This document shows positions 1,166 to 48,405 of a stretch of DNA of 64,000 bases, piece by piece. How positions within the stretch are numbered: position 1 is the first letter of the stretch; the number at the start of each line of letters is the position of its first letter. The notes beneath the pieces are model-generated. The model ran no database searches and was not told where the DNA came from. It worked only from the letters and a program-made list of their open reading frames with translations. Source of the stretch: Bacilli bacterium (lineage in GTDB: Bacteria > Bacillota_I > Bacilli_A > RF39 > UBA660); the NCBI GenBank assembly GCA_045125935.1, contig JBGVNW010000068.1, forward strand, positions 55,323 to 119,322, written 5' to 3'. The position numbers and the translations under genes are program-made.

Positions 1166-1385
1166 TTTAAAAAACATCCCTGTTGAACAATACAACAGAC
1201 CTGCTATATGTTGTCATCTTGATGAGTTCGATCCTATATTTGCAAATGAAAGCGACTTCGTTGAAGTTTGTGAGTGGAAAAACGGAGAAGGATATGACAT
1301 CACAATCAACGAAAGACAATATGCATTTACACACGGTGAGTTGGATGCTATCAATTATTTAATAACACAACTAAATAAAATTTAA
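1158..1385 (+). CDS. hypothetical protein (75 aa)
   Basis: Track ORF 1107..1385. I moved the start to the internal ATG (MNNLKNIPVEQ...), which overlaps the upstream stop and avoids a 59-nt overlap. Confidence 0.5.
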   Translation: MNNLKNIPVEQYNRPAICCHLDEFDPIFANESDFVEVCEWKNGEGYDITINERQYAFTHGELDAINYLITQLNKI

Positions 1386-1390
1386 AAATT

Positions 1391-1834
1391 ATGAGTCAAT
1401 ATTTAGGTTTTGAATTGGTCAATAAGGCAAATCCTGAAATCAAAGTTGATTTAGGTTATTGGTGTACTTCTATCGCAAGAGGTATCAGTTATAACTTCGC
1501 AGGTATCTTCCCTTATACCGATAGCGATGTCAAGTTGGATTATGAAAAATTGAAATCTTGGATTGAAATTCTACACGAAGGCATTGACGACTATAAGAAA
1601 AATCTCCGTAAGCAACAAGACAAGAAGAAAGAAAATATTGAACTATTACTCAAAGCACAATCAGAAGCAGCGGTGATTGCTATCAAGGAAGATATTCAAT
1701 ATAATGAGGAGTCTATTGCTGACTGGGAGCAAGAAATTGAAGATTGGACAATGGTAGAAAACAAATTGGAATTCATTCTGAATATTCTTGATGAGAATAA
1801 AGAAGAATGGTATGTAACTTATTGTAATTCATAA
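1391..1834 (+). CDS. hypothetical protein (147 aa)
   Basis: ORF track. Starts 5 nt after the upstream stop and ends at an AT palindrome. Confidence 0.6.
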   Translation: MSQYLGFELVNKANPEIKVDLGYWCTSIARGISYNFAGIFPYTDSDVKLDYEKLKSWIEILHEGIDDYKKNLRKQQDKKKENIELLLKAQSEAAVIAIKEDIQYNEESIADWEQEIEDWTMVENKLEFILNILDENKEEWYVTYCNS

Positions 1835-1852
1835 AATAATAATTATTTTTAT

Positions 1853-2230
1853 ATGTGTAGTGACGAATTAGTAAACGCAAATTTAAAACAAGAGTGGTTA
1901 GATGCGATAAAACCATATGTTATTGCACAAGGATTTCAGGATGCGGAATTCGGATTTGAGTATGTTCAAATCGGTAGATTACCTGGTCAAACAATTTCTA
2001 TCAACGGGCGTGTAATGCAAAAACCTGGTAAAGAAATTAAGATTAAGTATATAATTGAGTTTGTGGGTGACGGTTGGGTTGCTAATGTGGATGAAACCAA
2101 TAAAGAAGAATTCACACAAGTAAAATTTGAATCATATCAAGACAATGAATTGATATCAGAATATGAAGAAGCATTTTTTTGGGATAATCCTAACTATTTT
2201 ATTGAATCTTTTAATCGAATATTTAGATAA
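1853..2230 (+). CDS. hypothetical protein (125 aa)
   Basis: ORF track. Follows the palindrome at about 1834-1852. Confidence 0.6.
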   Translation: MCSDELVNANLKQEWLDAIKPYVIAQGFQDAEFGFEYVQIGRLPGQTISINGRVMQKPGKEIKIKYIIEFVGDGWVANVDETNKEEFTQVKFESYQDNELISEYEEAFFWDNPNYFIESFNRIFR

Positions 2231-2263
2231 AAAAATTATTAACAATTTAAAAAAAAATTAAAA

Positions 2264-3763
2264 ATGAGTATTGCAGTATTAATTAGTGTTATTATTGGAG
2301 TTGTTCTCCTATTATGTGTAATCCTATCATCTTATGTAAAGGCTCCCCCTTCGGTAGCATTTCTAATCTCTGGTCTTTCAAAAGAACCAAGAGTTTTAAT
2401 TGGTAAAGGTGGATTTAGGATTCCTTTCTTTGAACGAATTGATAAAGTTTTTCTAGGTCAAATGTCTGTGGATATCAAGACCAGTGTTGCTGTACCCACA
2501 AAGGATTTTATTAATGTGAATGTGGATGCAGTAGCAAAAGTTAGAGTAGTTCCAAATCAAGAGGGAATCAGGTTGGCAGGGAAGAACTTCCTGAACATGA
2601 CTCAAACCGATATTCAACATCAATTGAAGGATTCTCTTGAAGGTAATATGCGTGAGATTATTGGAACGCTTGATCTTGTTTCTTTGAATACAGACCGAGA
2701 CTCATTCTCTGACCAAATTGCACAAAAGGCGGGAAAGGATATGAACAAGTTGGGCATTGAGATTCTTTCTTGTAACATTCAAAATGTAACAGATGAACAA
2801 AATCTAATCAAAGACCTTGGTGCAGATAATACATGGCGAATTAAAAAGGACGCTGCTGTCACAAAAGCACAATCTGAGAAGGAAATAGCTATTGCACAGG
2901 CAGAGGCGAACAAAGAGGCGAATGATGCACGAGTAACTTCAGAAACTGCTATCGCAGAGCGTAACAACGAACTCGAAATTAAACGAGCAGACTTGAAGAA
3001 AGAAGCAGATGTGAAAAAAGCTATGTCAGATGCCGCATATGCTATTCAAGAACAAGAACAACAAAAACTCATAAATGAGAGAACTGTCGAAGCACATATT
3101 GCCAGAACAAAAAAAGAACAAGAACTCACAGAAGAAATGATTAAGGTTCGTGAGAATAATCTTCAAGCAGAGATCGCAAAACAAGCTGATGCTGAACGAT
3201 ATAAGTTAGAGGTTGAAGCTGCTGCAGATAAAAAGAAAACAGAGTTGGATGCAGAAGCAGAACTTACATTGAGAAAGCGTCAAGCAGAAGCGGAAGCATA
3301 TGAAGCAGAACAAAAAGCAAAGGCAGTTAAAGCAGAAGCAGATGCTATCAAATATAAGATGTTAATGGAAGCAGAAGGTATCAAGGCAGTTGGTGAAGCA
3401 GAAGCTGCCAAAATCAAGGCAGTTGGTGAAGCAGAAGCGAAAGCTCTCGATGCAAAAGCGAAGGCATATAAGAATTACAATGACACAATCAAGTTGCAAG
3501 AAGCACTTGTGGAAGTGCTACCAGAAGTTGCAAAGAATGTTGCTGCACCTATCGCTGCTCTTAAAGATGTAACTTTATATGGTGGTGGAATGAGTCAGGT
3601 TTCGGAGAATGTTCCAGTTATGACACAAATGGTTTATGACACAATGTCTGCTGCAACAGGTGTGGACATGAAGGAAATTCTTAAAACAAAGACACTCACT
3701 GCACAAACAGATAGAAATGTTAATGTGAATGGTGCGGAAGATGTAATTATTACAACAAAATAA
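2264..3763 (+). CDS. flotillin-like SPFH/band-7 membrane protein (FloT/YuaG/YqiK family)
   Basis: N-terminal TM helix, then an SPFH core (GKGGFRIPFFERIDKV...VDAVAKVRV). This is followed by a long A/E/K-rich flotillin coiled coil (AEADAIKYKMLMEAEGIKAVGEAEAAK...) and a tail (VLPEVAKNVAAPIAALKDVTLYGGG). The whole layout is co-linear with B. subtilis FloT as I remember it. Confidence 0.85.
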   Translation: MSIAVLISVIIGVVLLLCVILSSYVKAPPSVAFLISGLSKEPRVLIGKGGFRIPFFERIDKVFLGQMSVDIKTSVAVPTKDFINVNVDAVAKVRVVPNQEGIRLAGKNFLNMTQTDIQHQLKDSLEGNMREIIGTLDLVSLNTDRDSFSDQIAQKAGKDMNKLGIEILSCNIQNVTDEQNLIKDLGADNTWRIKKDAAVTKAQSEKEIAIAQAEANKEANDARVTSETAIAERNNELEIKRADLKKEADVKKAMSDAAYAIQEQEQQKLINERTVEAHIARTKKEQELTEEMIKVRENNLQAEIAKQADAERYKLEVEAAADKKKTELDAEAELTLRKRQAEAEAYEAEQKAKAVKAEADAIKYKMLMEAEGIKAVGEAEAAKIKAVGEAEAKALDAKAKAYKNYNDTIKLQEALVEVLPEVAKNVAAPIAALKDVTLYGGGMSQVSENVPVMTQMVYDTMSAATGVDMKEILKTKTLTAQTDRNVNVNGAEDVIITTK

Positions 3764-26089: not shown

Positions 26090-27682
26090 ATGAAAATTTT
26101 TAGAATCAAAAACAGACGAAATTCGCTAGCAACCAATTCGAGTTCAACACATTCGGTTGTTTATAAAAACAAAGATCAAGTATTTGAAGATTTGAATATC
26201 TTTGATAATAGATATTATGACCGACACACGGAAACTATCGCTGCTAGCCGTGAAGCAAAGATTCGCTATATCTTTGCGAATATCTTCCGTTGGAACGAAC
26301 TTGTCGAATTGATGTCAATGAGATATCCCGAAATGAAGGAATATTATCCTTTGGCAAAGGATTATTACGATATTTACTGTAATGATAAAAAATGGGAAGA
26401 ACTTCGCAAATCCAATGGTGATGAATATTGGGATTTGTGGGAGGAACGAGATAGTTATATGTTCGGAGACCACATGAGAGGTAATCTATATAACCATCAA
26501 GAACTTTATCTTTCTTATGAATTTCTTTGCAATATTATTGATAGTCCAGATATTGTCATTGTCGGTGGTAGCGACGAAGCAGACTTTGTATATGATACTA
26601 TCGATGGGTGTGATGAAATTTCAAGTAGTTTCTCATATATGAAAAATATTACCGAGAAAATAAAAAATGGTAATTACTATATATTGTATGGTAGCACATA
26701 TAACCAAAAGGAAAAGGTAAGATTGCAGGTGGATAGCATTCCAGATATGATACCAGAATATCCAGAACTTGTTGATATGAAAATCACAAATGCATGTGAA
26801 CATAACTGTCCGTTCTGCTATATGGCATCTACACCTAATGGCAAGCATTCAAATTTAAACGACATTTATGAAATTATATCTAAATTTAAAATTAAAACAG
26901 AATTCGCATTGGGTGGCGGAAATGTGTTGCTACATCCTGATTTTGACAAAATTGTAAGATATATCAAAATTAATGAACATATCGCTAACATTACTATCCG
27001 ATATGACGATATTGATACTATTAATAACAATGAGACAATCAAGGATGCTATCGAGAAATATGTAAGTGGTATCGGTCTATCTGTTCAGAAAGCAAATGAT
27101 GTAGATGTTGCAACAGACTTCATTAATAAGATGCTCGATCTTGGAAAGCATGTGTCGCTTCATATCATCCCCGAAATGATTGGAGTTGACGAAACAATTG
27201 CTATCCTTACCAAAATGAATGATATTAACAAACAACGAGTTGCCAATAAGAATTACGATGATCCTTATGCGACAAATAGATGTAAAGTATTATTTCTTGG
27301 TTTGAAGCAATCGGGTAGAGCAAAAAATCTTGAACACAAGTTGCTGTCAGAAGAAAATTTAGATTTATTCGCACAAACATCTGGTTATCAATTTAATGTA
27401 GATACTGCATTTATTAACACATACGAAACGTGGTTCGCAGAAACTTTCAATGGTGATGATGAGTTTTTCTTAACAAAACATGAAGGCGAGTATTCTATGT
27501 TTATTGATGCTGTCAAGATGCAAGCATATACATCATCATATAAAGATGATGGTGGTATTGACCTATACAAATATGATAGCGAATACGACTATGTTAAGGA
27601 TATTAATGAAGTGTTCGGAGAGATTCGTAAAAAGAATGGATTTAAAGTTTTTGAAAAACCTGAACCTTATTATAGAAAATAA
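26090..27682 (+). CDS. radical-SAM domain protein with an N-terminal extension of about 230 aa of unknown type
   Basis: ITNACEHNCPFCYM gives the CxxxCxxC 4Fe-4S/SAM cluster motif. The downstream GGGNVLLHPDF resembles the GGEPLL SAM-binding motif. I do not recognise the N-terminal region. Confidence 0.75.
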   Translation: MKIFRIKNRRNSLATNSSSTHSVVYKNKDQVFEDLNIFDNRYYDRHTETIAASREAKIRYIFANIFRWNELVELMSMRYPEMKEYYPLAKDYYDIYCNDKKWEELRKSNGDEYWDLWEERDSYMFGDHMRGNLYNHQELYLSYEFLCNIIDSPDIVIVGGSDEADFVYDTIDGCDEISSSFSYMKNITEKIKNGNYYILYGSTYNQKEKVRLQVDSIPDMIPEYPELVDMKITNACEHNCPFCYMASTPNGKHSNLNDIYEIISKFKIKTEFALGGGNVLLHPDFDKIVRYIKINEHIANITIRYDDIDTINNNETIKDAIEKYVSGIGLSVQKANDVDVATDFINKMLDLGKHVSLHIIPEMIGVDETIAILTKMNDINKQRVANKNYDDPYATNRCKVLFLGLKQSGRAKNLEHKLLSEENLDLFAQTSGYQFNVDTAFINTYETWFAETFNGDDEFFLTKHEGEYSMFIDAVKMQAYTSSYKDDGGIDLYKYDSEYDYVKDINEVFGEIRKKNGFKVFEKPEPYYRK

Positions 27683-42826: not shown

Positions 42827-42888
42827 TTGCTGTCCGATGAGGTAAAATAAAAATAATAATTATTTTTTTCAAGAAAGTTGCTGAAAAA

Positions 42889-42921
42889 TTTGGAAATTCA
42901 AAAAAAAAGTTGTTATATTTG
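42889..42921 (+). promoter_or_regulatory. Bacteroidota-type promoter
   Basis: TTTG-N21-TATATTTG. Confidence 0.7.
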
Positions 42922-42950
42922 TAGTGTAAAACTTAAAACAACAAACAATT

Positions 42951-43196: not shown

Positions 43197-43229
43197 CAGC
43201 AACCTGAAATCAAATGGCGAATGCTGTCA
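43194..43229. repeat. inverted TGACAGCA...TGCTGTCA pair with CTGAAATC in the spacer
   Basis: TGACAGCA 43194-43201, CTGAAATC 43204-43211, TGCTGTCA 43222-43229. Confidence 0.8.
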
Positions 43230-43257
43230 GAAAAAAATAAAAAAAGTTTCTGAAAAA

Positions 43258-43289
43258 TTTGGAAAAACAAAATATTTTTGTTATATTTG
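43258..43289 (+). promoter_or_regulatory. Bacteroidota-type promoter of the tRNA cluster
   Basis: TTTG-N20-TATATTTG. The first tRNA starts 30 nt downstream. Confidence 0.7.
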
Positions 43290-43318
43290 TAATGTAGTTC
43301 TTTGATAAGCATTGAAAC

Positions 43319-43699
43319 GGTCCTATAGCTCAGTTGGTTAGAGCATCTGACTTGATGTCCTATAAATTTCTCAAAAATATAAAAGTTTATAGGAGGTGGG
43401 TCGCAATATTGGAAACGATATTGTAGTAAGTGTTAAATTCATTGAAAGTCTTTATGGTAACATATTGTACCAACGATGAGCCAAATCCTTAACAGGAGAG
43501 GTGCAGAGACTATAATACACCACCTAAGTTATAGCACTTAACCAGATATGTGGTCATTCATATTTCTTAATAGGAGAATACCCCACGGTTAGGTGATGTA
43601 ATATGGTGAAGGCATAGTCCAAGTAAATGTATTTGAAATGAGATAGAATATATTTATAGCATAATCAGGAGGTCGTAGGTTCAAGCCCTACTGGGACCA
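43319..43699 (+). tRNA. tRNA with anticodon CAU (Met or lysidine-type Ile2) interrupted by a 307-nt intron between positions 33 and 34
   Basis: Exon 1 (43319-43352) is GGTCCTA-TA-GCTC-AGTTGGTTA-GAGC-A-TCTGA-CT. Exon 2 (43660-43699) is CATAA-TCAGG-AGGTC-GTAGG-TTCAAGC-CCTAC-TGGGACC-A. Joined, they form a canonical class I cloverleaf with anticodon loop CTCATAA. Confidence 0.8.
43353..43659 (+). ncRNA. group I (IC3-like) intron in the tRNA(CAU) anticodon loop
   Basis: The 5' exon ends in U and the intron ends in G. The core strings TATGGTAAC...GATGAGCCAAATCC...GGTGCAGAGACTATAATACACCACCTAAG parallel the Azoarcus tRNA-Ile intron as I remember it (UAUGGCAAC...GCCGAGCCAAGC...GGUGUAGAGACUAGACGGCACCCACCUAAGG). 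Confidence 0.7.
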
Positions 43700-43821
43700 C
43701 AAAATATACTGAAGCAATCTGAAAAATAATGATGATTGCTGTCGGGAAAATAAAAATAATTATTATTTCAGAAATGAAATGATATGAAATGGATAGCAAA
43801 AGAGATTGCTATTTTACAAAT

Positions 43822-44240
43822 GCTCTCTTAGCATAATGGATAATGCAACAGCCTTTAAGCAAATGTTTACATGAAATAGGAGTGCATACCCTGTAAAGGG
43901 TCGCTGGGAAACCAGTTATGTAGAAGTCCCCTAAACGGTGAAACCTTAACGGGTAGTGCTGATGGCAACACCGTGCCAATGTTATTAACGGAGATGACAT
44001 CTCGCAAGAGTTCAGAAAATAAAAGTCGGAGTTATAGACAGTGTGTAGAGAATCTACGGGGACAACCTAAGTTGAAATAGTGTACAGATTTCAATATGGT
44101 TGAGATTGATTCCAGACCACAAACAATTCACAATGTTTATAAAAGTACTTTTGGAAATGAAGACATTGTTAATAATTGGTAGTGAAAACTATAGTGGTAG
44201 GCTAAGCTGTCGATTGCTGGTTCGAGTCCAGCAGAGAGTA
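43822..44240 (+). tRNA. tRNA-Arg(UCU) (most parsimonious reading) interrupted by a 346-nt intron between positions 34 and 35
   Basis: Exon 1 (43822-43855) is GCTCTCT-TA-GCAT-AATGGATA-ATGC-A-ACAGC-CTT. Exon 2 (44202-44240) is CTAA-GCTGT-CGATT-GCTGG-TTCGAGT-CCAGC-AGAGAGT-A. This is a class I cloverleaf. The splice points were chosen so that the 5' exon ends in U, the intron ends in G and the loop has 7 nt (CTTCTAA). Confidence 0.7.
43856..44201 (+). ncRNA. group I (IC3-like) intron in the tRNA-Arg anticodon loop
   Basis: GGGTCGCTGGGAAACCAG parallels GGGTCGC plus a GAAA-loop hairpin in the first intron. The core GTGTAGAGAATCTACGGGGACAACCTAAG...CAATATGG parallels the Azoarcus ...GUAGAGACUAGACGGCACCCACCUAAGG...CUAUGG. 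Confidence 0.65.
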
Positions 44241-44263
44241 CAAAATAAAATTAAAAAACCAGT

Positions 44264-44830
44264 ATGAAAGAATTGAAAGAATGTCCAATTCATGGTTTAA
44301 CAGAATTTACATTTTATAAAACATCTTCACACAATGGACAATTTAAGTGTAATAAATGTGAAGTAGAGTTATCAACTTTAAAAAACCAAAAAAGAAAAAT
44401 TAAAGCGGTTGAATATAAAGGTGGAAAATGTGAATTGTGTAAGTATGATAAAAATATATCTGCTTTGGAGTTTCACCACTTAAATCCAGACGAAAAGGAT
44501 TTTACAATTTCTGGATTTAAATGTGGTTGGGAAGACTTAAAAAAAGAATTAGACAAATGTATAATGGTTTGTGCTAATTGTCATAGGGAAATACACAACC
44601 CACATTCAACTATACAGAATATTAAAGAACTGATAGAAAAACATGAAATTGACATTAAGATTAAACAGGAAACATATAAGCGAAATAGACCTTCAAAATA
44701 CAAATTTACTTTAGATGAAGTTAATAAAAAAAGATTGGAGTGTTCTAACTGGGAAGAAGTTGCAGATTTTTATGATATGAGTATATCAACTTTAAAAAGA
44801 CATCGCAAAGAATTAAAAAATAAAAAATAA
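44264..44830 (+). CDS. free-standing HNH endonuclease (homing-endonuclease-like)
   Basis: CELCKYDKNISALEFHHLNPDEKDF...MVCANCHREIHN is the HNH motif. Zinc-ribbon N-terminus (CPIHG...CNKC) and HTH-like C-terminal tail. Located 24 nt after the intron-containing tRNA-Arg. Confidence 0.8.
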   Translation: MKELKECPIHGLTEFTFYKTSSHNGQFKCNKCEVELSTLKNQKRKIKAVEYKGGKCELCKYDKNISALEFHHLNPDEKDFTISGFKCGWEDLKKELDKCIMVCANCHREIHNPHSTIQNIKELIEKHEIDIKIKQETYKRNRPSKYKFTLDEVNKKRLECSNWEEVADFYDMSISTLKRHRKELKNKK

Positions 44831-44835
44831 AATTT

Positions 44836-44893
44836 TGTCAGCAATCTGAAATCTAATGATGATTGTTATGAAATCAGATGGTGATTGCTGTCA
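44836..44893. repeat. composite intergenic repeat (TGTCAGCA, CTGAAATC, ATGGTGATTGCTGTCA)
   Basis: CTGAAATC at 44846-44853. Exact 16-mer ATGGTGATTGCTGTCA at 44878-44893. Confidence 0.8.
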
Positions 44894-44923
44894 AAAAAGA
44901 TATTTGAAATATTTGATAAGGAG

Positions 44924-45007
44924 GCAGGAATGTTGTAATAGGTAGCCAAGAGGCACTTAAAATGCCTTGACCATTTGGTCGTGCGGGTTCGAGTCCCGCT
45001 TCCTGTA
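44924..45007 (+). tRNA. tRNA-Leu(UAA), uninterrupted
   Basis: GCAGGAA-TG-TTG..CAA-G-AGGCA-CTTAAAA-TGCCT, then the long variable arm TGACCATTTGGTCGT, then GCGGG-TTCGAGT-CCCGC-TTCCTGT-A. Class II cloverleaf of 84 nt. Confidence 0.85.
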
Positions 45008-45030
45008 CAAAAAAATTAAATAAACTATAT

Positions 45031-45101
45031 TGACAGCAAACGCCAATTTTATGCAGTCAAATGAAATCAAATGAAGATTGATGTTATGGTGATTGCTGTC
45101 A
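45031..45101. repeat. inverted TGACAGCA...ATGGTGATTGCTGTCA pair
   Basis: TGACAGCA at 45031-45038. Exact 16-mer at 45086-45101. Confidence 0.8.
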
Positions 45102-46767: not shown

Positions 46768-48405
46768 ATGAAATCAACAGACAAACTTAATCTTTTTGGC
46801 GAACCGCTATCAGATGAAATTGAAAGAAATGTGGTGAAAAACAAGACATTATCTTTTAAAAAGAAATACAAGGCAACCCAAGACTATCACTATATGCCGA
46901 TTAAGAATATGAAACATCGGAAAGCAACCAAACAGTTTTTATCTGAAATGCTTGGACTTCAGACAGCAGGTTGGACAACTGACCAGATTTTGTATGCTAT
47001 CGGACGGGAATTGACAGCAGGTAAGCAATTACCAGACTTTCATCTGAAATCCAAAAGCAATTTGAAGATATCTATACCAGATGATGTTCGAGAAGAGCAT
47101 GATCTAATTGGTGGTTGCTATCAATATTTGAGCACAAAACACGAGAGACTCAAAAAAGGATCCTTTTATACTACAGAAAGAATTATTGAAAGAATCGTTA
47201 TTGGTCTTGATATTGATGGAGACACTTCTGTATTTGATCCATCTTGTGGGAGTGGGAATCTAATATTGAACAGTAAGGTTATTAACCCAAAACAAGTACA
47301 TGGCATTGATATTGATCCACTGGCAGTGATGTGCTGTCAGTTCAATTACTATCTGAAATTTGGGAACGACGCACCTGAACCTGATATCAGATGTATGAAC
47401 TTCTCGGATCTGGTGAAACAGGGATGTGATCTGAAATTTGATGTAATCCTGTGCAATCCACCGTATGGGGCGGAGATGAATATATCTGGAGTGAATTCTG
47501 AAATCAGAAGCACTGACTGTTTGGATTTCTTCGTAGAGCATGCGAGCAAGATGGCGGCGGAGTCTGTCTTCGTGCTACCAGAAACTGTAATCAATGTAAA
47601 GAAGCACGAGAACTTGAGATCTTGGATTCTACAGAAAAAGAAATTGTCTGCAATTCAAAGCTTTGGGGCTGGAATTGATAGCACATTATATAATATAGTA
47701 TCATTGACCTTAAATCATAAAGAAAAAAATAATTATTTTTTTGATGGAAAGCAGGTAGATTATGATTTTACCATCAATGTGTTGGACAGCAAATTTCGTC
47801 CGATCGGAGGAGATGAGATGGAATTCATTCGAAAGATGTATGCTATACCTCATCAGACATTAGAGAAGTGTAAACATGTAACGGGAATAGTAACTGGGGA
47901 TGATGAGAAGTTTTTATTAGATGAACCGACAGCAAGTTCTGAACCAGTGATTACTGGGAAGCACATAGAACCATATAAGATCACAGGAGAGAAATATATT
48001 AATTACGAAGATGTTCGTGGGCAGTTGGCGATCGCTGTCAAGGACTCATATTTCCGAACACCAGAAAAACTCATTTATCATACAGTATCCAGAAATTTAG
48101 AGTTTGCTATCGACACTGACAGCAGGCTTACTACCTGCACTGCGAATTTCTTTTTGGTGAAAGATATCAGGGTGAGTACTAAATGTATTATGGCGATGTT
48201 TAACTCTCGGATATATAATCGCATCAACGAGTTACTCTTCGGTGACAAAGTGAATCGTGGAGGCAATATTAAAAAATTACCTATCCCGATTCTGGATGAA
48301 GACCAGCAGCGGCGGATGGAGAAATATGTGGATGATGAGAATTACGCAGCGATTGAAGAGATGCTCGCTGATTTCTTTCAGATTTATGATAGCAAAATAA
48401 AATAA
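46768..48405 (+). CDS. gamma-class N6-adenine DNA methyltransferase (Eco57I/TaqI-like), apparently orphan
   Basis: Motif I is SVFDPSCGSGNLIL. Motif IV is DVILCNPPYG. There is a large C-terminal TRD-like region. No endonuclease partner is nearby. Confidence 0.85.
   Translation: MKSTDKLNLFGEPLSDEIERNVVKNKTLSFKKKYKATQDYHYMPIKNMKHRKATKQFLSEMLGLQTAGWTTDQILYAIGRELTAGKQLPDFHLKSKSNLKISIPDDVREEHDLIGGCYQYLSTKHERLKKGSFYTTERIIERIVIGLDIDGDTSVFDPSCGSGNLILNSKVINPKQVHGIDIDPLAVMCCQFNYYLKFGNDAPEPDIRCMNFSDLVKQGCDLKFDVILCNPPYGAEMNISGVNSEIRSTDCLDFFVEHASKMAAESVFVLPETVINVKKHENLRSWILQKKKLSAIQSFGAGIDSTLYNIVSLTLNHKEKNNYFFDGKQVDYDFTINVLDSKFRPIGGDEMEFIRKMYAIPHQTLEKCKHVTGIVTGDDEKFLLDEPTASSEPVITGKHIEPYKITGEKYINYEDVRGQLAIAVKDSYFRTPEKLIYHTVSRNLEFAIDTDSRLTTCTANFFLVKDIRVSTKCIMAMFNSRIYNRINELLFGDKVNRGGNIKKLPIPILDEDQQRRMEKYVDDENYAAIEEMLADFFQIYDSKIK

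What the first reader, a model, noticed from the sequence alone, without database searches (positions are those of the whole stretch)
43319..45007. Two phage tRNA genes each split by a group I intron, next to a free-standing HNH endonuclease
Both tRNA(CAU) and tRNA-Arg(UCU) fold into canonical cloverleaves only after removing 307 nt and 346 nt from the anticodon loop.

The removed segments carry the catalytic-core strings of the bacterial tRNA IC3 introns:
- GGTGCAGAGACTATAATACACCACCTAAG in the first intron
- GTGTAGAGAATCTACGGGGACAACCTAAG in the second
- Azoarcus, from memory: GGUGUAGAGACUAGACGGCACCCACCUAAGG

The chosen boundaries obey the rule that the 5' exon ends in U and the intron ends in G.

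The insertion points differ (33/34 versus 34/35), which argues for independent insertions.

Both introns carry roughly 100 extra nt 3' of the point where an Azoarcus-type core would end.

The neighbouring tRNA-Leu(UAA), which is the classic intron host in cyanobacteria and plastids, is intact here.

An HNH gene sits between the interrupted and intact tRNAs.

Phage group I introns are classically found in protein-coding genes, so intron-bearing phage tRNAs are unusual.
Basis: partly seen in the sequence, partly recalled or inferred. Interest (0 to 1): 0.8.

Follow-up and report, generated by a model that had tools for sequence, protein, structure and literature searches.

The report
Self-splicing introns inside two phage tRNA genes
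Two transfer-RNA genes of a large, uncultured phage are each interrupted in the anticodon loop by a self-splicing (group I) intron. Reviews say this does not occur in phages, yet the same intron family turns up in tRNA genes of more than a hundred other viral contigs.

Summary

**The split genes**
- tRNA(CAU) is exons 43319-43352 and 43660-43699. tRNA-Arg(UCU) is exons 43822-43855 and 44202-44240.
- They are split by 307 nt (43353-43659, after U33) and 346 nt (43856-44201, after U34).

**Evidence that these are group I introns**
- Rfam's group I model is weak here: 46.6 and 13.5 bits against a cut-off of 50.
- A covariance model built only from introns in other viral contigs scores 72 bits (E 1e-16) and 105 bits (E 9e-25).
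- Intron 2 forms 46 of 48 family base pairs and intron 1 forms 34 of 36 core pairs, including the P3/P7 pseudoknot.
- In each intron the internal guide pairs with the ligated anticodon loop, with U·G at the 5' splice site, and the intron ends in G.
- The spliced products align end to end with hundreds of uninterrupted phage tRNAs.
- A 96%-identical variant carries a compensatory change (C4-G69 to U4-A69) that spans the intron.

**How common this is**
- A 22-nt P9 motif of intron 2 hits more than 120 viral contigs. About 100 of the 123 hits lie in tRNA genes.
- The motif also hits 86 stretches of bacterial genomes.

**Novelty**
- These are new members of the known IC3-type tRNA intron kind, in a host context I found undescribed.

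**The HNH gene**
- It is real and free-standing. Its link to the introns is only a hypothesis.

The parts
43278..43291 (+). Promoter-like motif TTGTTATATTTGTA, 27 nt upstream of tRNA(CAU). It is the likely start of the tRNA transcript.
   Evidence: There are 19 matches in the window (up to 2 mismatches) against 4.6 expected, 18 of them on the + strand. That it contains a Bacteroidota-type -7 box (TAnnTTTG) is from my own knowledge. Its function is inferred.
43319..43352 (+). tRNA(CAU) 5' exon, positions 1-33, ending in U33.
   Evidence: ARAGORN. Joined to the 3' exon, it aligns over 1-74 with uninterrupted phage tRNA(CAU) genes.
43353..43659 (+). Group I intron 1: 307 nt, no ORF, inserted at 33/34.
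   Evidence: Rfam RF00028 gives 46.6 bits in a local scan. Model R1 gives 72.1 bits, E 1.4e-16. 34 of 36 core family pairs form.
43396..43403 (+). Intron 1 internal guide sequence GUGGGUCG. P1 pairs with exon UGACU (43348-43352), with U43352·G43399 at the splice site. P10 pairs with CAU (43660-62).
   Evidence: ViennaRNA folds the P1 domain this way on its own. The variant L125 changes U43397 to C, turning a G·U pair of the P1 extension into G-C.
43406..43421 (+). Intron 1 P2 hairpin with a GAAA tetraloop.
43506..43512 (+). Intron 1 P7 5' strand G[A]GACUA. It pairs with 43615-43620 (UAGUCC).
   Evidence: 6 of 6 pairs form. P7 is 100% paired across the family, with covariation. That this is the guanosine-binding helix is from my own knowledge.
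43521..43608 (+). Intron 1 P8, with CCUAAG/UAUGG (the 11-nt tetraloop-receptor motif) at its base and an insertion of about 70 nt.
   Evidence: Recognising the receptor motif rests on my own knowledge.
43623..43659 (+). Intron 1 P9: a single 12-bp hairpin, unlike the family's P9 module. The terminal G43659 is omega-G.
   Evidence: ViennaRNA fold. R1 does not align this part.
43660..43699 (+). tRNA(CAU) 3' exon, starting at C34.
   Evidence: It is 88% identical to the uninterrupted tRNA(CAU) of Lak-A1. G69 covaries with C4 in L125.
43822..43855 (+). tRNA-Arg(UCU) 5' exon, positions 1-34, ending in U34.
43856..44201 (+). Group I intron 2: 346 nt, no ORF, inserted at 34/35.
   Evidence: R1 gives 104.8 bits, E 8.9e-25, and the match ends exactly at G44201. 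46 of 48 family pairs form. Rfam gives only 13.5 bits.
43877..43882 (+). Intron 2 internal guide sequence UAGGAG. P1 pairs GAG with CUU (43853-55), with U43855·G43880. P10 pairs UAG with CUA (44202-04).
   Evidence: The 13-nt stretch GAAAUAGGAGUGC is identical to that of the tRNA-Arg 34/35 intron in L052. The complementarity alone is not significant: 26% of shuffles reach it.
43883..43922 (+). Intron 2 branched P2 domain: stem UGCAUA/UAUGUA enclosing a GUAA hairpin and a GAAA hairpin.
44048..44054 (+). Intron 2 P7 5' strand G[A]GAAUC. It pairs with 44108-44113 (GAUUCC).
   Evidence: 6 of 6 pairs form. Two pairs are changed on both sides relative to the family consensus (C-G to A-U, and A-U to C-G).
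44064..44101 (+). Intron 2 P8 with the CCUAAG/UAUGG receptor motif.
44116..44201 (+). Intron 2 P9 domain: P9.0, P9 with a 50-nt hairpin insertion, P9a, the 22-nt motif GGUAGUGAAAACUAUAGUGGUA at 44177-44198, then GG ending in omega-G44201.
   Evidence: 29 of 29 nt are identical to the DnaB intron of crAss-like Kolpuevirus 'frurule'.
44202..44240 (+). tRNA-Arg(UCU) 3' exon, starting at C35.
   Evidence: Positions 8-65 of the spliced tRNA are 58/58 identical to an uninterrupted tRNA-Arg in L304.
44264..44830 (+). Free-standing HNH endonuclease gene (188 aa), starting 24 nt after tRNA-Arg.
   Evidence: phrog_2255, E 4.4e-26. Pfam HNH is below its cut-off. Homologues lie in tRNA arrays of other viral contigs and of Lak-A1.
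44924..45008 (+). Uninterrupted tRNA-Leu(UAA).
   Evidence: ARAGORN. Rfam tRNA gives 49.6 bits.

Best explanation
Two tRNA genes of a large AT-rich phage each carry an ORF-less group I intron of the bacterial tRNA (IC3-like) type in the anticodon loop. The host is probably a Bacteroidota.

**How it most likely works**
1. The tRNA cluster is transcribed. A promoter-like motif lies 27 nt upstream of tRNA(CAU).
2. In each precursor, the last bases of the 5' exon pair with the intron's internal guide to form P1, with a U·G wobble at the cleavage site. These bases are UGACU for tRNA(CAU) and CUU for tRNA-Arg.
3. The intron core folds: P3-P8 with the P3/P7 pseudoknot, an L2 GAAA loop and a receptor motif in P8.
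4. A free guanosine bound in P7 attacks after U33 (intron 1) or U34 (intron 2).
5. The terminal G of the intron (G43659 or G44201) takes its place, P10 aligns the 3' exon, and the exons are ligated.
6. This restores the anticodon loops CU-CAU-AA and CU-UCU-AA.
7. End-processing and CCA addition then give working tRNAs. CCA is not encoded.

**What the tRNAs are for**
- tRNA-Arg(UCU) would read AGA, the phage's dominant Arg codon.
- tRNA(CAU) would read AUG or, if lysidine-modified, AUA.

**Shown and inferred**
- Shown: homology, structure, boundaries and exon co-evolution.
- Inferred: catalysis, expression, and whether any protein cofactor is needed.

The introns are best seen as tolerated selfish elements that spread among tRNA genes of phages and bacteria. 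The neighbouring HNH gene is a separate, free-standing endonuclease typical of phage tRNA arrays.
For: **The exons encode real tRNAs.**
- The spliced products give canonical cloverleaves.
- They align without gaps across the junction to uninterrupted phage tRNAs. At least 80% of the query is covered in 572 records for CAU and 193 for Arg, and the listed Arg matches are annotated tRNA-Arg.
- The junction 21-mers occur contiguously in 8 and 67 viral contigs. L304 is 58/58 identical.

**The inserts belong to a covarying intron family.**
- Model R1 was built from 31 tRNA introns of other viral contigs. It scores the two inserts at 72.1 and 104.8 bits and finds nothing else in the window.
- Across 66 sequences, 97.2% of cells are paired, against 33-40% when the partners are slid. 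40 of 48 pairs change on both sides, and 0 of 500 shuffles reach the observed values.
- The window introns form 34 of 36 core pairs and 46 of 48 pairs. Intron 2 has two compensatory pairs in P7.

**The guide sequence tracks the exon across tRNA types.**

| tRNA and site | Exons | Guide |
|---|---|---|
| Leu | ACUU\|AAA | UUUGAGU |
| Arg 33/34 | GCCU\|UCU | AGGGGGC |
| Arg 34/35 | CUU\|CUA | UAGGAG |
| CAU | GACU\|C | GGGUC |
| Asn | GCUGU\|UA | UAGCAGC |

Both window introns obey this rule at the homologous position.

**The split tRNA is under selection.**
- A 96%-identical variant (L125) changes C4-G69 to U4-A69, a compensatory change in the acceptor stem across the 307-nt intron.
- The remaining intron 1 differences fall in the enlarged P1 stem-loop or the P8 insertion. 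One of them improves a P1 pair.

**Codon use fits.**
- AGA is 54% of Arg codons, UUA 34% of Leu and AUA 33% of Ile.
Against: - There is no RNA evidence. Splicing, expression and aminoacylation are untested.
- Rfam RF00028 is below its gathering score for both introns (46.6 and 13.5 against 50).
- Both introns are 100-150 nt larger than the roughly 200-nt family norm, with insertions in the P1 stem-loop, P2, P5, P6, P8 or P9 that could slow folding or make it depend on a protein.
- P1 of intron 2 has only 3 exon pairs. Its guide complementarity alone is not significant: 26% of shuffles reach it.
- P3 of intron 1 has only 4 clean pairs.
- No intron-less allele of the same tRNA was found in a close relative of this phage. 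The nearest empty sites are in distant contigs.
Confidence: 0.85

Rival explanations
1. Collaborative homing or immunity. The free-standing HNH endonuclease cuts intron-less tRNA-Arg(UCU) and/or tRNA(CAU) genes of competing phages. The introns split its recognition sites, so the carrier genome is immune. Repair of the cut copies the intron and the HNH gene together into the recipient. On this reading, introns and HNH form one mobile unit.
For: - In five viral contigs from two lineages (L255, L256, L282; L268, L297), an HNH homologue (49-52% identical) sits exactly between an intron-less tRNA-Met(CAU) and an intron-less tRNA-Arg(UCU). Its 3' end overlaps the tRNA-Arg 5' end. These are the same two tRNA types that carry introns here.
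- Between the window and variant L125, the block 43814-44613 (tRNA-Arg, intron 2 and the first 350 nt of the HNH gene) has no differences, while the flanks and intron 1 differ by 2-4%.
- In L128 the same block sits next to different upstream DNA.
- Related tRNA introns do carry HNH or PD-(D/E)XK ORFs, so endonuclease-driven mobility occurs in this family.
- Free-standing endonucleases that mobilise ORF-less phage introns have been described (cyanophage psbA, Aeromonas phage nrdA). This is from my own memory and was not checked here.
Against: - HNH homologues sit in tRNA arrays next to other tRNAs (Asn, Lys, Leu), and none of the 13 loci has an R1 hit. Lak-A1 has the HNH with an intron-less tRNA-Arg.
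- The identical block is partly an artefact of how the variants were retrieved, which was by exact HNH protein match.
- The intron-encoded HNH ORFs are only weakly similar to this one (best E 2e-4 in a small database).
- No cleavage site is known.
Confidence: 0.25
2. Dead introns in tRNA pseudogenes. The inserts descend from group I introns but no longer splice, and the two tRNA genes are inactivated relics.
For: Both introns are unusually large for the family, score lowest among family members and fall below the Rfam cut-off. Nothing shows expression.
Against: - Nearly all core pairs are intact, including P7 with its bulged A, and the terminal G and the guide sequences are in place.
- Intron 2's P7 differs from the consensus only through compensatory changes.
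- The acceptor-stem pair 4-69 changed on both sides in L125.
- tRNA-Arg plus intron 2 is identical in three diverged contexts.
- AGA is the main Arg codon of the phage.
Confidence: 0.06
3. Splicing depends on a protein. The introns are true group I introns, but their enlarged peripheral domains mean they splice efficiently only with a host or phage cofactor, or only under particular conditions. That would make the supply of tRNA(CAU) and tRNA-Arg(UCU) a regulated step of infection.
For: - Insertions relative to the family model are 71 nt in P8 of intron 1, and 48 nt in P6, 50 nt in P9 and a branched P2 in intron 2.
- The P5-to-P8 stretch of intron 2, which includes the P6 insertion, is 86% identical over 117 nt in L018. 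This suggests the insertion is retained and not decaying.
Against: No candidate cofactor was identified. Most neighbouring ORFs have no family match. Peripheral insertions are common in self-splicing introns (own knowledge).
Confidence: 0.15

Closest known systems
Bacterial IC3 tRNA introns: cyanobacterial and plastid tRNA-Leu(UAA), Azoarcus tRNA-Ile(CAU), Agrobacterium tRNA-Arg(CCU), cyanobacterial tRNA-fMet
   Same: - ORF-less, inserted in the anticodon loop, with a short P1 formed with anticodon-loop bases, a U·G splice site and a terminal G.
- P2 has a GAAA loop, P8 has CCUAAG/UAUGG, and there is no P5abc.
- The same family model hits tRNA-Leu(UAA) introns of Leptolyngbya and tRNA-Arg(UCU) 34/35 introns of Lysinibacillus chromosomes.
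   Different: - The genes are carried by a phage, not a cell.
- The insertion sites are 33/34 in tRNA(CAU) and 34/35 in tRNA-Arg(UCU). From memory, the Azoarcus intron follows position 36.
- The introns are 307 and 346 nt against roughly 200-250 nt, with extra peripheral hairpins.
- Subgroup IC3 was assigned by resemblance, not by a classifier.
Classical phage group I introns in protein-coding genes (T4 td, nrdB and sunY; crAss-like phage introns)
   Same: [quoted passage not shown]
- Intron 2's 3' end is 29/29 nt identical to the GIY-YIG-carrying DnaB intron of Kolpuevirus 'frurule'.
- Intron 1's core is 95% identical over 41 nt to an intron next to the capsid genes of a marine podophage.
   Different: - The host gene is a tRNA, not an mRNA, so there is no reading frame to restore.
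- The 2014 review states that all phage introns then known were in protein-coding genes (PMC3984707). A 2025 paper still describes phage group I introns that way (PMC12350094).
Free-standing homing endonucleases in phage tRNA clusters (T4 SegB)
   Same: A stand-alone endonuclease gene embedded among phage tRNA genes. SegB in the T4/T6 tRNA region is discussed in PMC13096335 (seen only in its abstract). Homologues of this HNH recur in tRNA arrays.
   Different: The protein is HNH, whereas SegB is GIY-YIG (own knowledge). Target and activity are unknown, and here it lies next to intron-bearing tRNAs.
The same intron family in sequenced GenBank phages
   Same: R1 scores:
- 203.9 bits in the tRNA-Leu(UAA) of the 735-kb phage LR756501
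- 165.2 bits in the tRNA-Leu(UAA) of Agrobacterium phage Atu_ph07
- 134.5 bits in the tRNA-Arg(CCU) of Microcoleus phage My-WqHQDG
   Different: - These introns are not annotated as introns. In Atu_ph07 neither the tRNA gene nor the intron is annotated, and a 'hypothetical protein' CDS runs over the 3' exon. The Microcoleus record lists a 286-nt 'tRNA-Arg'.
- I found no paper that discusses them.

Membership tests
Group I intron (Rfam RF00028) | Score at or above the curated gathering threshold (50 bits) | tested here: not met
   Intron 1 scores 46.6 bits (E 1.8e-10) and intron 2 scores 13.5 bits (E 1.5) in a local scan. Whole-window scans report neither. Verified relatives do pass: L003 scores 78 and 76.9 bits.
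Group I intron | Conserved core helices P3-P8 with the P3/P7 pseudoknot, supported by covariation | tested here: met
   Across the family, 97.2% of cells are paired and 40 of 48 pairs change on both sides. The window introns form 34 of 36 core pairs and 46 of 48 pairs. R1 gives E 1.4e-16 and 8.9e-25.
Group I intron | P1 between the 5' exon and an internal guide, with U·G at the 5' splice site; terminal G at the 3' end; P10 with the 3' exon | tested here: met
   - Intron 1: UGACU/GGUCG with U43352·G43399, and P10 CAU/GUG.
- Intron 2: CUU/GAG with U43855·G43880, and P10 CUA/UAG.
- Terminal Gs are G43659 and G44201.
- The guide covaries with the exon across tRNA types.
Group I intron | Guanosine-dependent self-splicing | not testable with these tools
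   This needs in vitro transcription and splicing, or RNA sequencing of infected cells.
IC3-type bacterial tRNA introns | Insertion in the anticodon loop of a tRNA gene, with excision restoring a canonical 7-nt loop | tested here: met
IC3-type bacterial tRNA introns | Compact architecture: P2 with a GNRA (GAAA) loop, the 11-nt receptor motif CCUAAG/UAUGG in P8, no P5abc, and a P9.0/P9 domain | tested here: inconclusive
   The motifs are present in both introns. The architecture is expanded, however, and intron 1 lacks the family P9 module. No formal subgroup classifier was run, and the comparison with Azoarcus and Anabaena rests on memory.
IC3-type bacterial tRNA introns | Homology to introns in bacterial tRNA genes | tested here: met
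   The 22-nt P9 motif occurs in 86 bacterial genome stretches, and 68 of its 81 occurrences there lie inside tRNA genes. R1 scores 116.8 bits on the Lysinibacillus tRNA-Arg intron and 74.1 bits on the Leptolyngbya tRNA-Leu intron.
HNH endonuclease | HNH (beta-beta-alpha-metal) domain | tested here: met
   phrog_2255, E 4.4e-26, plus five further PHROG HNH families. The motifs CxxC...HH...N...CxxCH are visible in the sequence. Pfam PF01844 scores 17 bits, below its 21.4 cut-off.
Homing endonuclease | Site-specific cleavage of endonuclease-less or intron-less alleles, with super-Mendelian inheritance | not testable with these tools
   Only context is available. Homologues recur in tRNA arrays, and in five contigs they lie between tRNA-Met(CAU) and tRNA-Arg(UCU).

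The most novel reading that the evidence does not exclude
Phage-encoded tRNA genes are a large, overlooked reservoir of IC3-type group I introns that exchange with bacterial tRNA genes. In this phage the two introns work together with the adjacent free-standing HNH endonuclease. The enzyme would cut intron-less tRNA(CAU) and tRNA-Arg(UCU) genes of rival phages, while the introns shield the carrier's own copies and are copied across along with the HNH gene. That would be an intron-endonuclease partnership acting on tRNA arrays.
Probability: 0.2. Interest if true: 0.8.

Novelty: new member of a known kind. Interest (0 to 1): 0.62.

Why it matters
**It contradicts the standard account.**
- The standard review says that every phage group I intron known was in a protein-coding gene, despite the many phage tRNA genes (PMC3984707).
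- This window, more than 100 IMG/VR contigs and at least three GenBank phages show otherwise.

**Routine annotation misses these genes.**
- Default ARAGORN and a whole-window Rfam scan report one tRNA here instead of three.
- Phage tRNA counts and codon-supply analyses are therefore biased, especially for huge phages.

**It links phage and bacterial introns.**
- The family shares near-identical modules between phage tRNA introns, phage protein-gene introns and bacterial chromosomal tRNA introns.
- This gives a concrete route for intron traffic between cells and viruses.

**It may be useful.**
- The family is a set of compact natural ribozymes with varied guide sequences. Ribozymes of this type are used in circular-RNA engineering.

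**It makes a hypothesis testable.**
- The recurrent HNH / tRNA(CAU) / tRNA-Arg(UCU) neighbourhood allows a direct test of endonuclease-intron cooperation.

Tried and rejected
**Rfam as arbiter**
- The gathering-threshold scan found no intron.
- A local E-value scan gave a near-threshold hit for intron 1 and noise-level for intron 2.
- A whole-window E-value scan lost both.
- I rejected Rfam as the deciding test because it also missed the bona fide DnaB intron in L002.

**Alternative splice registers for tRNA-Arg**
- ARAGORN's choice gives anticodon GCU, meaning a 'tRNA-Ser' without a long variable arm.
- An alternative P1 (GCCUUU/AAGGGU) would put the wobble pair at U33.
- I rejected both. AAGGGU belongs to a local GUAA hairpin of the P2 domain. 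The family rule is GGUA-N-G|exon. Homologues read CCTTCTAAG.

**Close relatives of the window in GenBank phages**
- Megablast of 24 kb found nothing.
- Only short tRNA, HNH and intron-core matches were found.

**Other introns in the window**
- None were found with R1, Rfam or intron-aware ARAGORN.

**Introns next to HNH homologues**
- None were found in 13 loci.

**Met or Ile2 identity of tRNA(CAU)**
- This is unresolved. It is not an initiator: 1-72 is paired and the anticodon stem lacks three G-C pairs.
- Its phiKZ homologue is annotated tRNA-Met in most records and tRNA-Ile in one.
- C4-G69 and C5-G68 resemble E. coli tRNA-Ile2 (from memory), but L125 has U4-A69.

**Literature**
- Ten searches found no report of group I introns in phage tRNA genes.
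- The library holds only open-licence papers and bioRxiv, so this is not proof of absence.

**Not used**
- The metagenome-collection scan, protein structure prediction and the large protein searches would not have decided anything here.

Full report
**1. What is in the sequence**

Standard tools see one tRNA in the 64-kb window, tRNA-Leu(UAA) at 44924-45008 (ARAGORN; Rfam tRNA 49.6 bits). With introns allowed, ARAGORN finds two more and nothing else on either strand:
- tRNA(CAU) at 43319-43699, with 307 nt removed
- a tRNA at 43822-44240, with 346 nt removed

The inserts are 43353-43659 (after U33) and 43856-44201 (after U34). Each 5' exon ends in U and each insert ends in G. An ORF at 44264-44830 between tRNA-Arg and tRNA-Leu matches PHROG HNH endonuclease families (phrog_2255, E 4.4e-26). 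Pfam HNH is below its cut-off.

**2. Are the exons real tRNA halves?**

The spliced tRNA(CAU) does not exist contiguously in the window, yet it aligns over 1-74 with uninterrupted tRNA(CAU) genes.
- Identity is 86.7% to Prevotella megaphage Lak-A1 and 83.8% to phiKZ-like phages.
- At least 80% of the query is covered in 572 phage records.

The spliced tRNA-Arg aligns across its junction with tRNA genes annotated tRNA-Arg.
- Identity is 93% over positions 8-65 to a Synechococcus phage, and 193 records cover at least 80% of the query.
- The loop CCTTCTAAG is invariant in the four sequences aligned.

The junction 21-mers occur as uninterrupted DNA in 67 (Arg) and 8 (CAU) viral contigs. One uninterrupted tRNA-Arg (L304) is 58/58 identical over positions 8-65.

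A 96%-identical variant of this locus (L125) has C4 changed to U in the 5' exon and G69 changed to A in the 3' exon. This keeps acceptor pair 4-69 intact across the 307-nt insert. That is the signature of a tRNA that still has to function.

**3. Are the inserts group I introns?**

Rfam's RF00028 is weak here.
- In a 1.1-kb scan it gives 46.6 bits (E 1.8e-10; cut-off 50) for intron 1 and 13.5 bits (E 1.5) for intron 2.
- In whole-window scans it reports neither.

Two short BLAST matches gave the lead.
- 41 nt of intron 1's core are 95% identical to an intron next to the capsid genes of a marine podophage. That intron passes Rfam at 76.9 bits.
- 29 nt at the 3' end of intron 2 are identical to the end of the GIY-YIG-carrying intron that splits DnaB in crAss-like Kolpuevirus 'frurule'.

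I then scanned IMG/VR for the 22-nt motif GGTAGTGAAAACTATAGTGGTA. Together with the copy in the Kolpuevirus locus already held, that makes 123 occurrences. About 100 of these lie inside tRNA genes:
- mostly tRNA-Leu(UAA) at 34/35
- tRNA-Arg(UCU) at 33/34 (7) and at 34/35 (6)
- tRNA-Met(CAU) at 33/34 (7)
- Asn(GUU) and others

A few lie in protein-coding genes.

I aligned 31 non-redundant introns from these contigs.
- RNAalifold predicted P2, P3, P4, P5, P6, P6a, P8, P9.0, P9 and P9a, and 26 of the 42 pairs had compensatory changes.
- The covariance model R1 built from this alignment contains nothing from the window.
- R1 scores intron 2 at 104.8 bits (E 8.9e-25), with the match ending exactly at G44201.
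- R1 scores intron 1 at 72.1 bits (E 1.4e-16), and hits nothing else in the window.

I then tested a 66-sequence model-guided alignment, with P7 added as a pseudoknot. Being fitted to the model, this alignment leans towards its structure, so the slid-partner control is the fairer comparison.
- 97.2% of cells are paired, against 33-40% when the partners are slid.
- 40 of 48 pairs change on both sides.
- No shuffle out of 500 reaches the observed values.

Intron 2 forms 46 of the 48 pairs. Its P7 (G[A]GAAUC/GAUUCC) differs from the consensus (G[A]GACUA/UAGUCC) by two double, pair-preserving changes. Intron 1 forms 34 of the 36 core pairs (P2-P8 and P7). Its P9 is a single 12-bp hairpin in place of the family module. 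Both introns have a GAAA loop on P2 and CCUAAG/UAUGG at the base of P8. From my own knowledge, CCUAAG/UAUGG is the 11-nt tetraloop-receptor motif used in Azoarcus-type IC3 introns.

**4. Splice sites**

Across the family, the bases just 5' of P2 pair with the ligated exons, and they change with the tRNA.

| tRNA and site | Exons | Guide |
|---|---|---|
| Leu | ACUU\|AAA | UUUGAGU |
| Arg 33/34 | GCCU\|UCU | AGGGGGC |
| Arg 34/35 | CUU\|CUA | UAGGAG |
| CAU | GACU\|C | GGGUC |
| Asn | GCUGU\|UA | UAGCAGC |

The exon's last U always faces a G.

Intron 1 has GUGGGUCG at 43396-43403.
- P1 is UGACU/GGUCG with U43352·G43399. P10 is CAU/GUG.
- Only 2% of shuffles reach this complementarity.
- It sits at the top of a long P1 stem-loop that ViennaRNA folds unaided.

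Intron 2 has UAGGAG at 43877-43882.
- P1 is CUU/GAG with U43855·G43880. P10 is CUA/UAG.
- Taken alone this is not significant, since 26% of shuffles reach it.
- However, it sits at the homologous position, and the 13-nt stretch GAAAUAGGAGUGC is identical to that of the tRNA-Arg 34/35 intron in L052.

The family's 3' rule is GGUA, one base, then G|exon. This puts the 3' splice site at 44201|44202 and gives anticodon UCU. ARAGORN's GCU reading would be a tRNA-Ser without the long variable arm, and I reject it.

**5. Where else the family occurs**

The same motif occurs in 86 stretches of bacterial genomes, and 68 of its 81 occurrences there lie within tRNA genes:
- Lysinibacillus tRNA-Arg(UCU) at 34/35
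- Clostridia tRNA-Tyr
- Patescibacteria tRNA-Met
- Thiotrichales tRNA-Arg
- Leptolyngbya tRNA-Leu(UAA)

Some of these MAG contigs may be binned phages.

In GenBank phages, R1 scores are as follows.

| Phage | Host tRNA gene | R1 bits | Annotation in the record |
|---|---|---|---|
| 735-kb phage LR756501 | tRNA-Leu(UAA) | 203.9 | record has no annotation |
| Agrobacterium phage Atu_ph07 | tRNA-Leu(UAA) | 165.2 | tRNA and intron not annotated; a 'hypothetical protein' CDS runs over the 3' exon |
| Microcoleus phage My-WqHQDG | tRNA-Arg(CCU) | 134.5 | listed as a 286-nt tRNA-Arg |

Some longer family members carry HNH or PD-(D/E)XK ORFs inside the tRNA intron. The two window introns belong to different lineages.
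- Intron 1 is nearest the 'GGGUC' guide lineage, found at 33/34 of tRNAs with GACU at positions 30-33 (L238, L075).
- Intron 2 is nearest L018, at 86% over 117 nt.

This supports independent insertion.

**6. What is known**

- A 2025 paper on phage introns still describes phage group I introns as favouring nucleotide- and DNA-metabolism genes (PMC12350094).
- The crAss-like phage survey reports introns only in protein genes (PMC7886860).
- The huge-phage paper does not mention introns (PMC7162821).
- Ten full-text searches found no report of group I introns in phage tRNA genes. The library covers only open-licence papers and bioRxiv.

I therefore file these as new members of the known IC3-type tRNA intron kind, in a host context that appears undescribed but is common in the data.

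**7. The HNH gene**

It is free-standing, starting 63 nt after the end of intron 2 and 24 nt after tRNA-Arg.
- 13 related loci were found in viral contigs. Eight lie in tRNA arrays, and none has an R1 hit.
- Lak-A1 has a homologue, with in-frame TAG codons, after an intact tRNA-Asn. Its tRNA-Met and tRNA-Arg are uninterrupted.

So the HNH family belongs to tRNA arrays whether or not introns are present, like SegB in T4.

Two observations keep a functional link open.
- In five contigs that I had picked only for the tRNA-Arg anticodon-arm 21-mer, an HNH homologue (49-52% identical) sits between intron-less tRNA-Met(CAU) and tRNA-Arg(UCU) and overlaps the latter's 5' end. These are the same two tRNA types that carry introns here.
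- The block from tRNA-Arg through intron 2 into the HNH gene (43814-44613) is identical between the window and L125, while the flanks differ by 2-4%. The same block sits in a different upstream context in L128. This is partly a retrieval bias, because the variants were found by exact HNH protein match.

I give the cooperative homing or immunity model about 0.25.

**8. Context**

- The window is 26-36% G+C, and nearly all its ORFs are on the + strand.
- It has no close relative in GenBank phages.
- Seven of the ten ORFs tested against PHROGs have no match.
- One contig that encodes the same HNH protein is 0.2-1 Mb long, probably the window's source.
- The promoter-like motif and the tRNA and HNH similarity to Lak phages suggest a Bacteroidota host. 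This is an inference.
- AGA, UUA and AUA are heavily used: 54% of Arg, 34% of Leu and 33% of Ile codons. The three clustered tRNAs plausibly serve the phage's A-ending codons.
- Whether tRNA(CAU) is Met or Ile2 is unresolved.

**9. Verdict**

The claim about 'extra' 3' sequence is wrong. The HNH link is unproven. Interest is moderate to high, because the case contradicts a textbook generalisation and exposes a blind spot in annotation. The mechanism itself is ordinary.

Noticed in passing
window, e.g. 43198-43228, 43715-43743, 44837-44892, 45032-45100; 45 sites in all: There is a repeated intergenic inverted repeat, GACAGCAAyC ... GrTTGCTGTC, forming a hairpin and usually followed by an A-rich run. 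GATTGCTGTC with up to 1 mismatch occurs 45 times against 2.4 expected. It flanks each of the tRNA genes and the HNH gene. It could be a terminator, a processing site or a recombination site; its function is unknown.
   Followed up: partly
window 520, 4203, 7314, 11692, 25673, 42910, 43278 and others: The promoter-like motif (A/T)TGTTATATTTGTA occurs 19 times against 4.6 expected, 18 of them on the + strand. Near 42870-42925 and 43238-43293 it is part of a longer repeat...CTGAAAAATTTGGAAA...TTGTTATATTTGTA.
   Followed up: partly
L219 (Agrobacterium phage Atu_ph07, MF403008.1, 112141-113933) 683-1044: This isolated jumbo phage has a tRNA-Leu(UAA) split by a 278-nt intron of the same family (R1 165 bits). 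Neither the tRNA gene nor the intron is annotated in GenBank, and a 'hypothetical protein' CDS runs over the 3' exon.
   Followed up: partly
L218 (Microcoleus phage My-WqHQDG, OR578706.1) 613-898: The GenBank record annotates a 286-nt 'tRNA-Arg'. It is a tRNA-Arg(CCU) with a 213-nt group I intron (R1 134.5 bits). The intron is not named as such.
   Followed up: partly
L060 (IMGVR_UViG_3300031998_003058, 10.3 kb): One 10-kb viral contig holds three copies of the 22-nt motif and four R1 hits, so several intron-bearing tRNA genes lie side by side.
   Followed up: no
L014, L017, L061, L117 (HNH); L056, L057 (PD-(D/E)XK): Longer tRNA introns of the family (590-750 nt) carry ORFs of about 150-160 aa. 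Some match Pfam HNH above its cut-off and one matches PDDEXK_5 (E 2.4e-17). These are likely intron-encoded homing endonucleases inside phage tRNA genes.
   Followed up: partly
L255, L256, L282, L268, L297: The gene order is tRNA-Met(CAU) - HNH homologue - tRNA-Arg(UCU), with no introns. The HNH reading frame runs 10 nt into the tRNA-Arg 5' end.
   Followed up: partly
L128 (ERZ27302950 contig) compared with window 43200-43722: A close variant lacks the whole tRNA(CAU) gene with its intron and has a 495-aa ORF upstream instead. It keeps tRNA-Arg, intron 2 and HNH almost unchanged, with one difference at 44173.
   Followed up: partly
L002 (Kolpuevirus 'frurule', OQ198718.1) 1303-3596: The replicative helicase DnaB is annotated as two separate CDSs with a GIY endonuclease CDS between them. 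This is a group I intron (R1 95 bits at 2303-2531) that Rfam did not detect at E up to 0.01.
   Followed up: partly
L001 (Prevotella phage Lak-A1) 4190-4850: The HNH homologue in Lak-A1 has in-frame TAG codons (for example ...CCTGAATAGAAAGAT...), as expected if TAG is read as an amino acid in that phage. The window's HNH has none.
   Followed up: no
window 26090-27682 and 46768-48405: One ORF resembles radical-SAM / Fe-S oxidoreductases (phrog_16999, E 1.4e-27). Another is an N6 adenine DNA methyltransferase with a TaqI-like specificity domain (Pfam N6_Mtase, E 1.5e-14). Seven of the ten ORFs tested against PHROGs have no match.
   Followed up: no
L141 (Bacteroidales MAG contig, 204 kb), L162 and L206 (Paludibacteraceae MAG): Contigs binned as Bacteroidales genomes carry tRNA introns of the same family: Thr(UGU), Arg(UCU) at 34/35 and Leu(UAA). 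L141 has a second R1 hit 1.7 kb away. These may be host genes or binned phage contigs.
   Followed up: no
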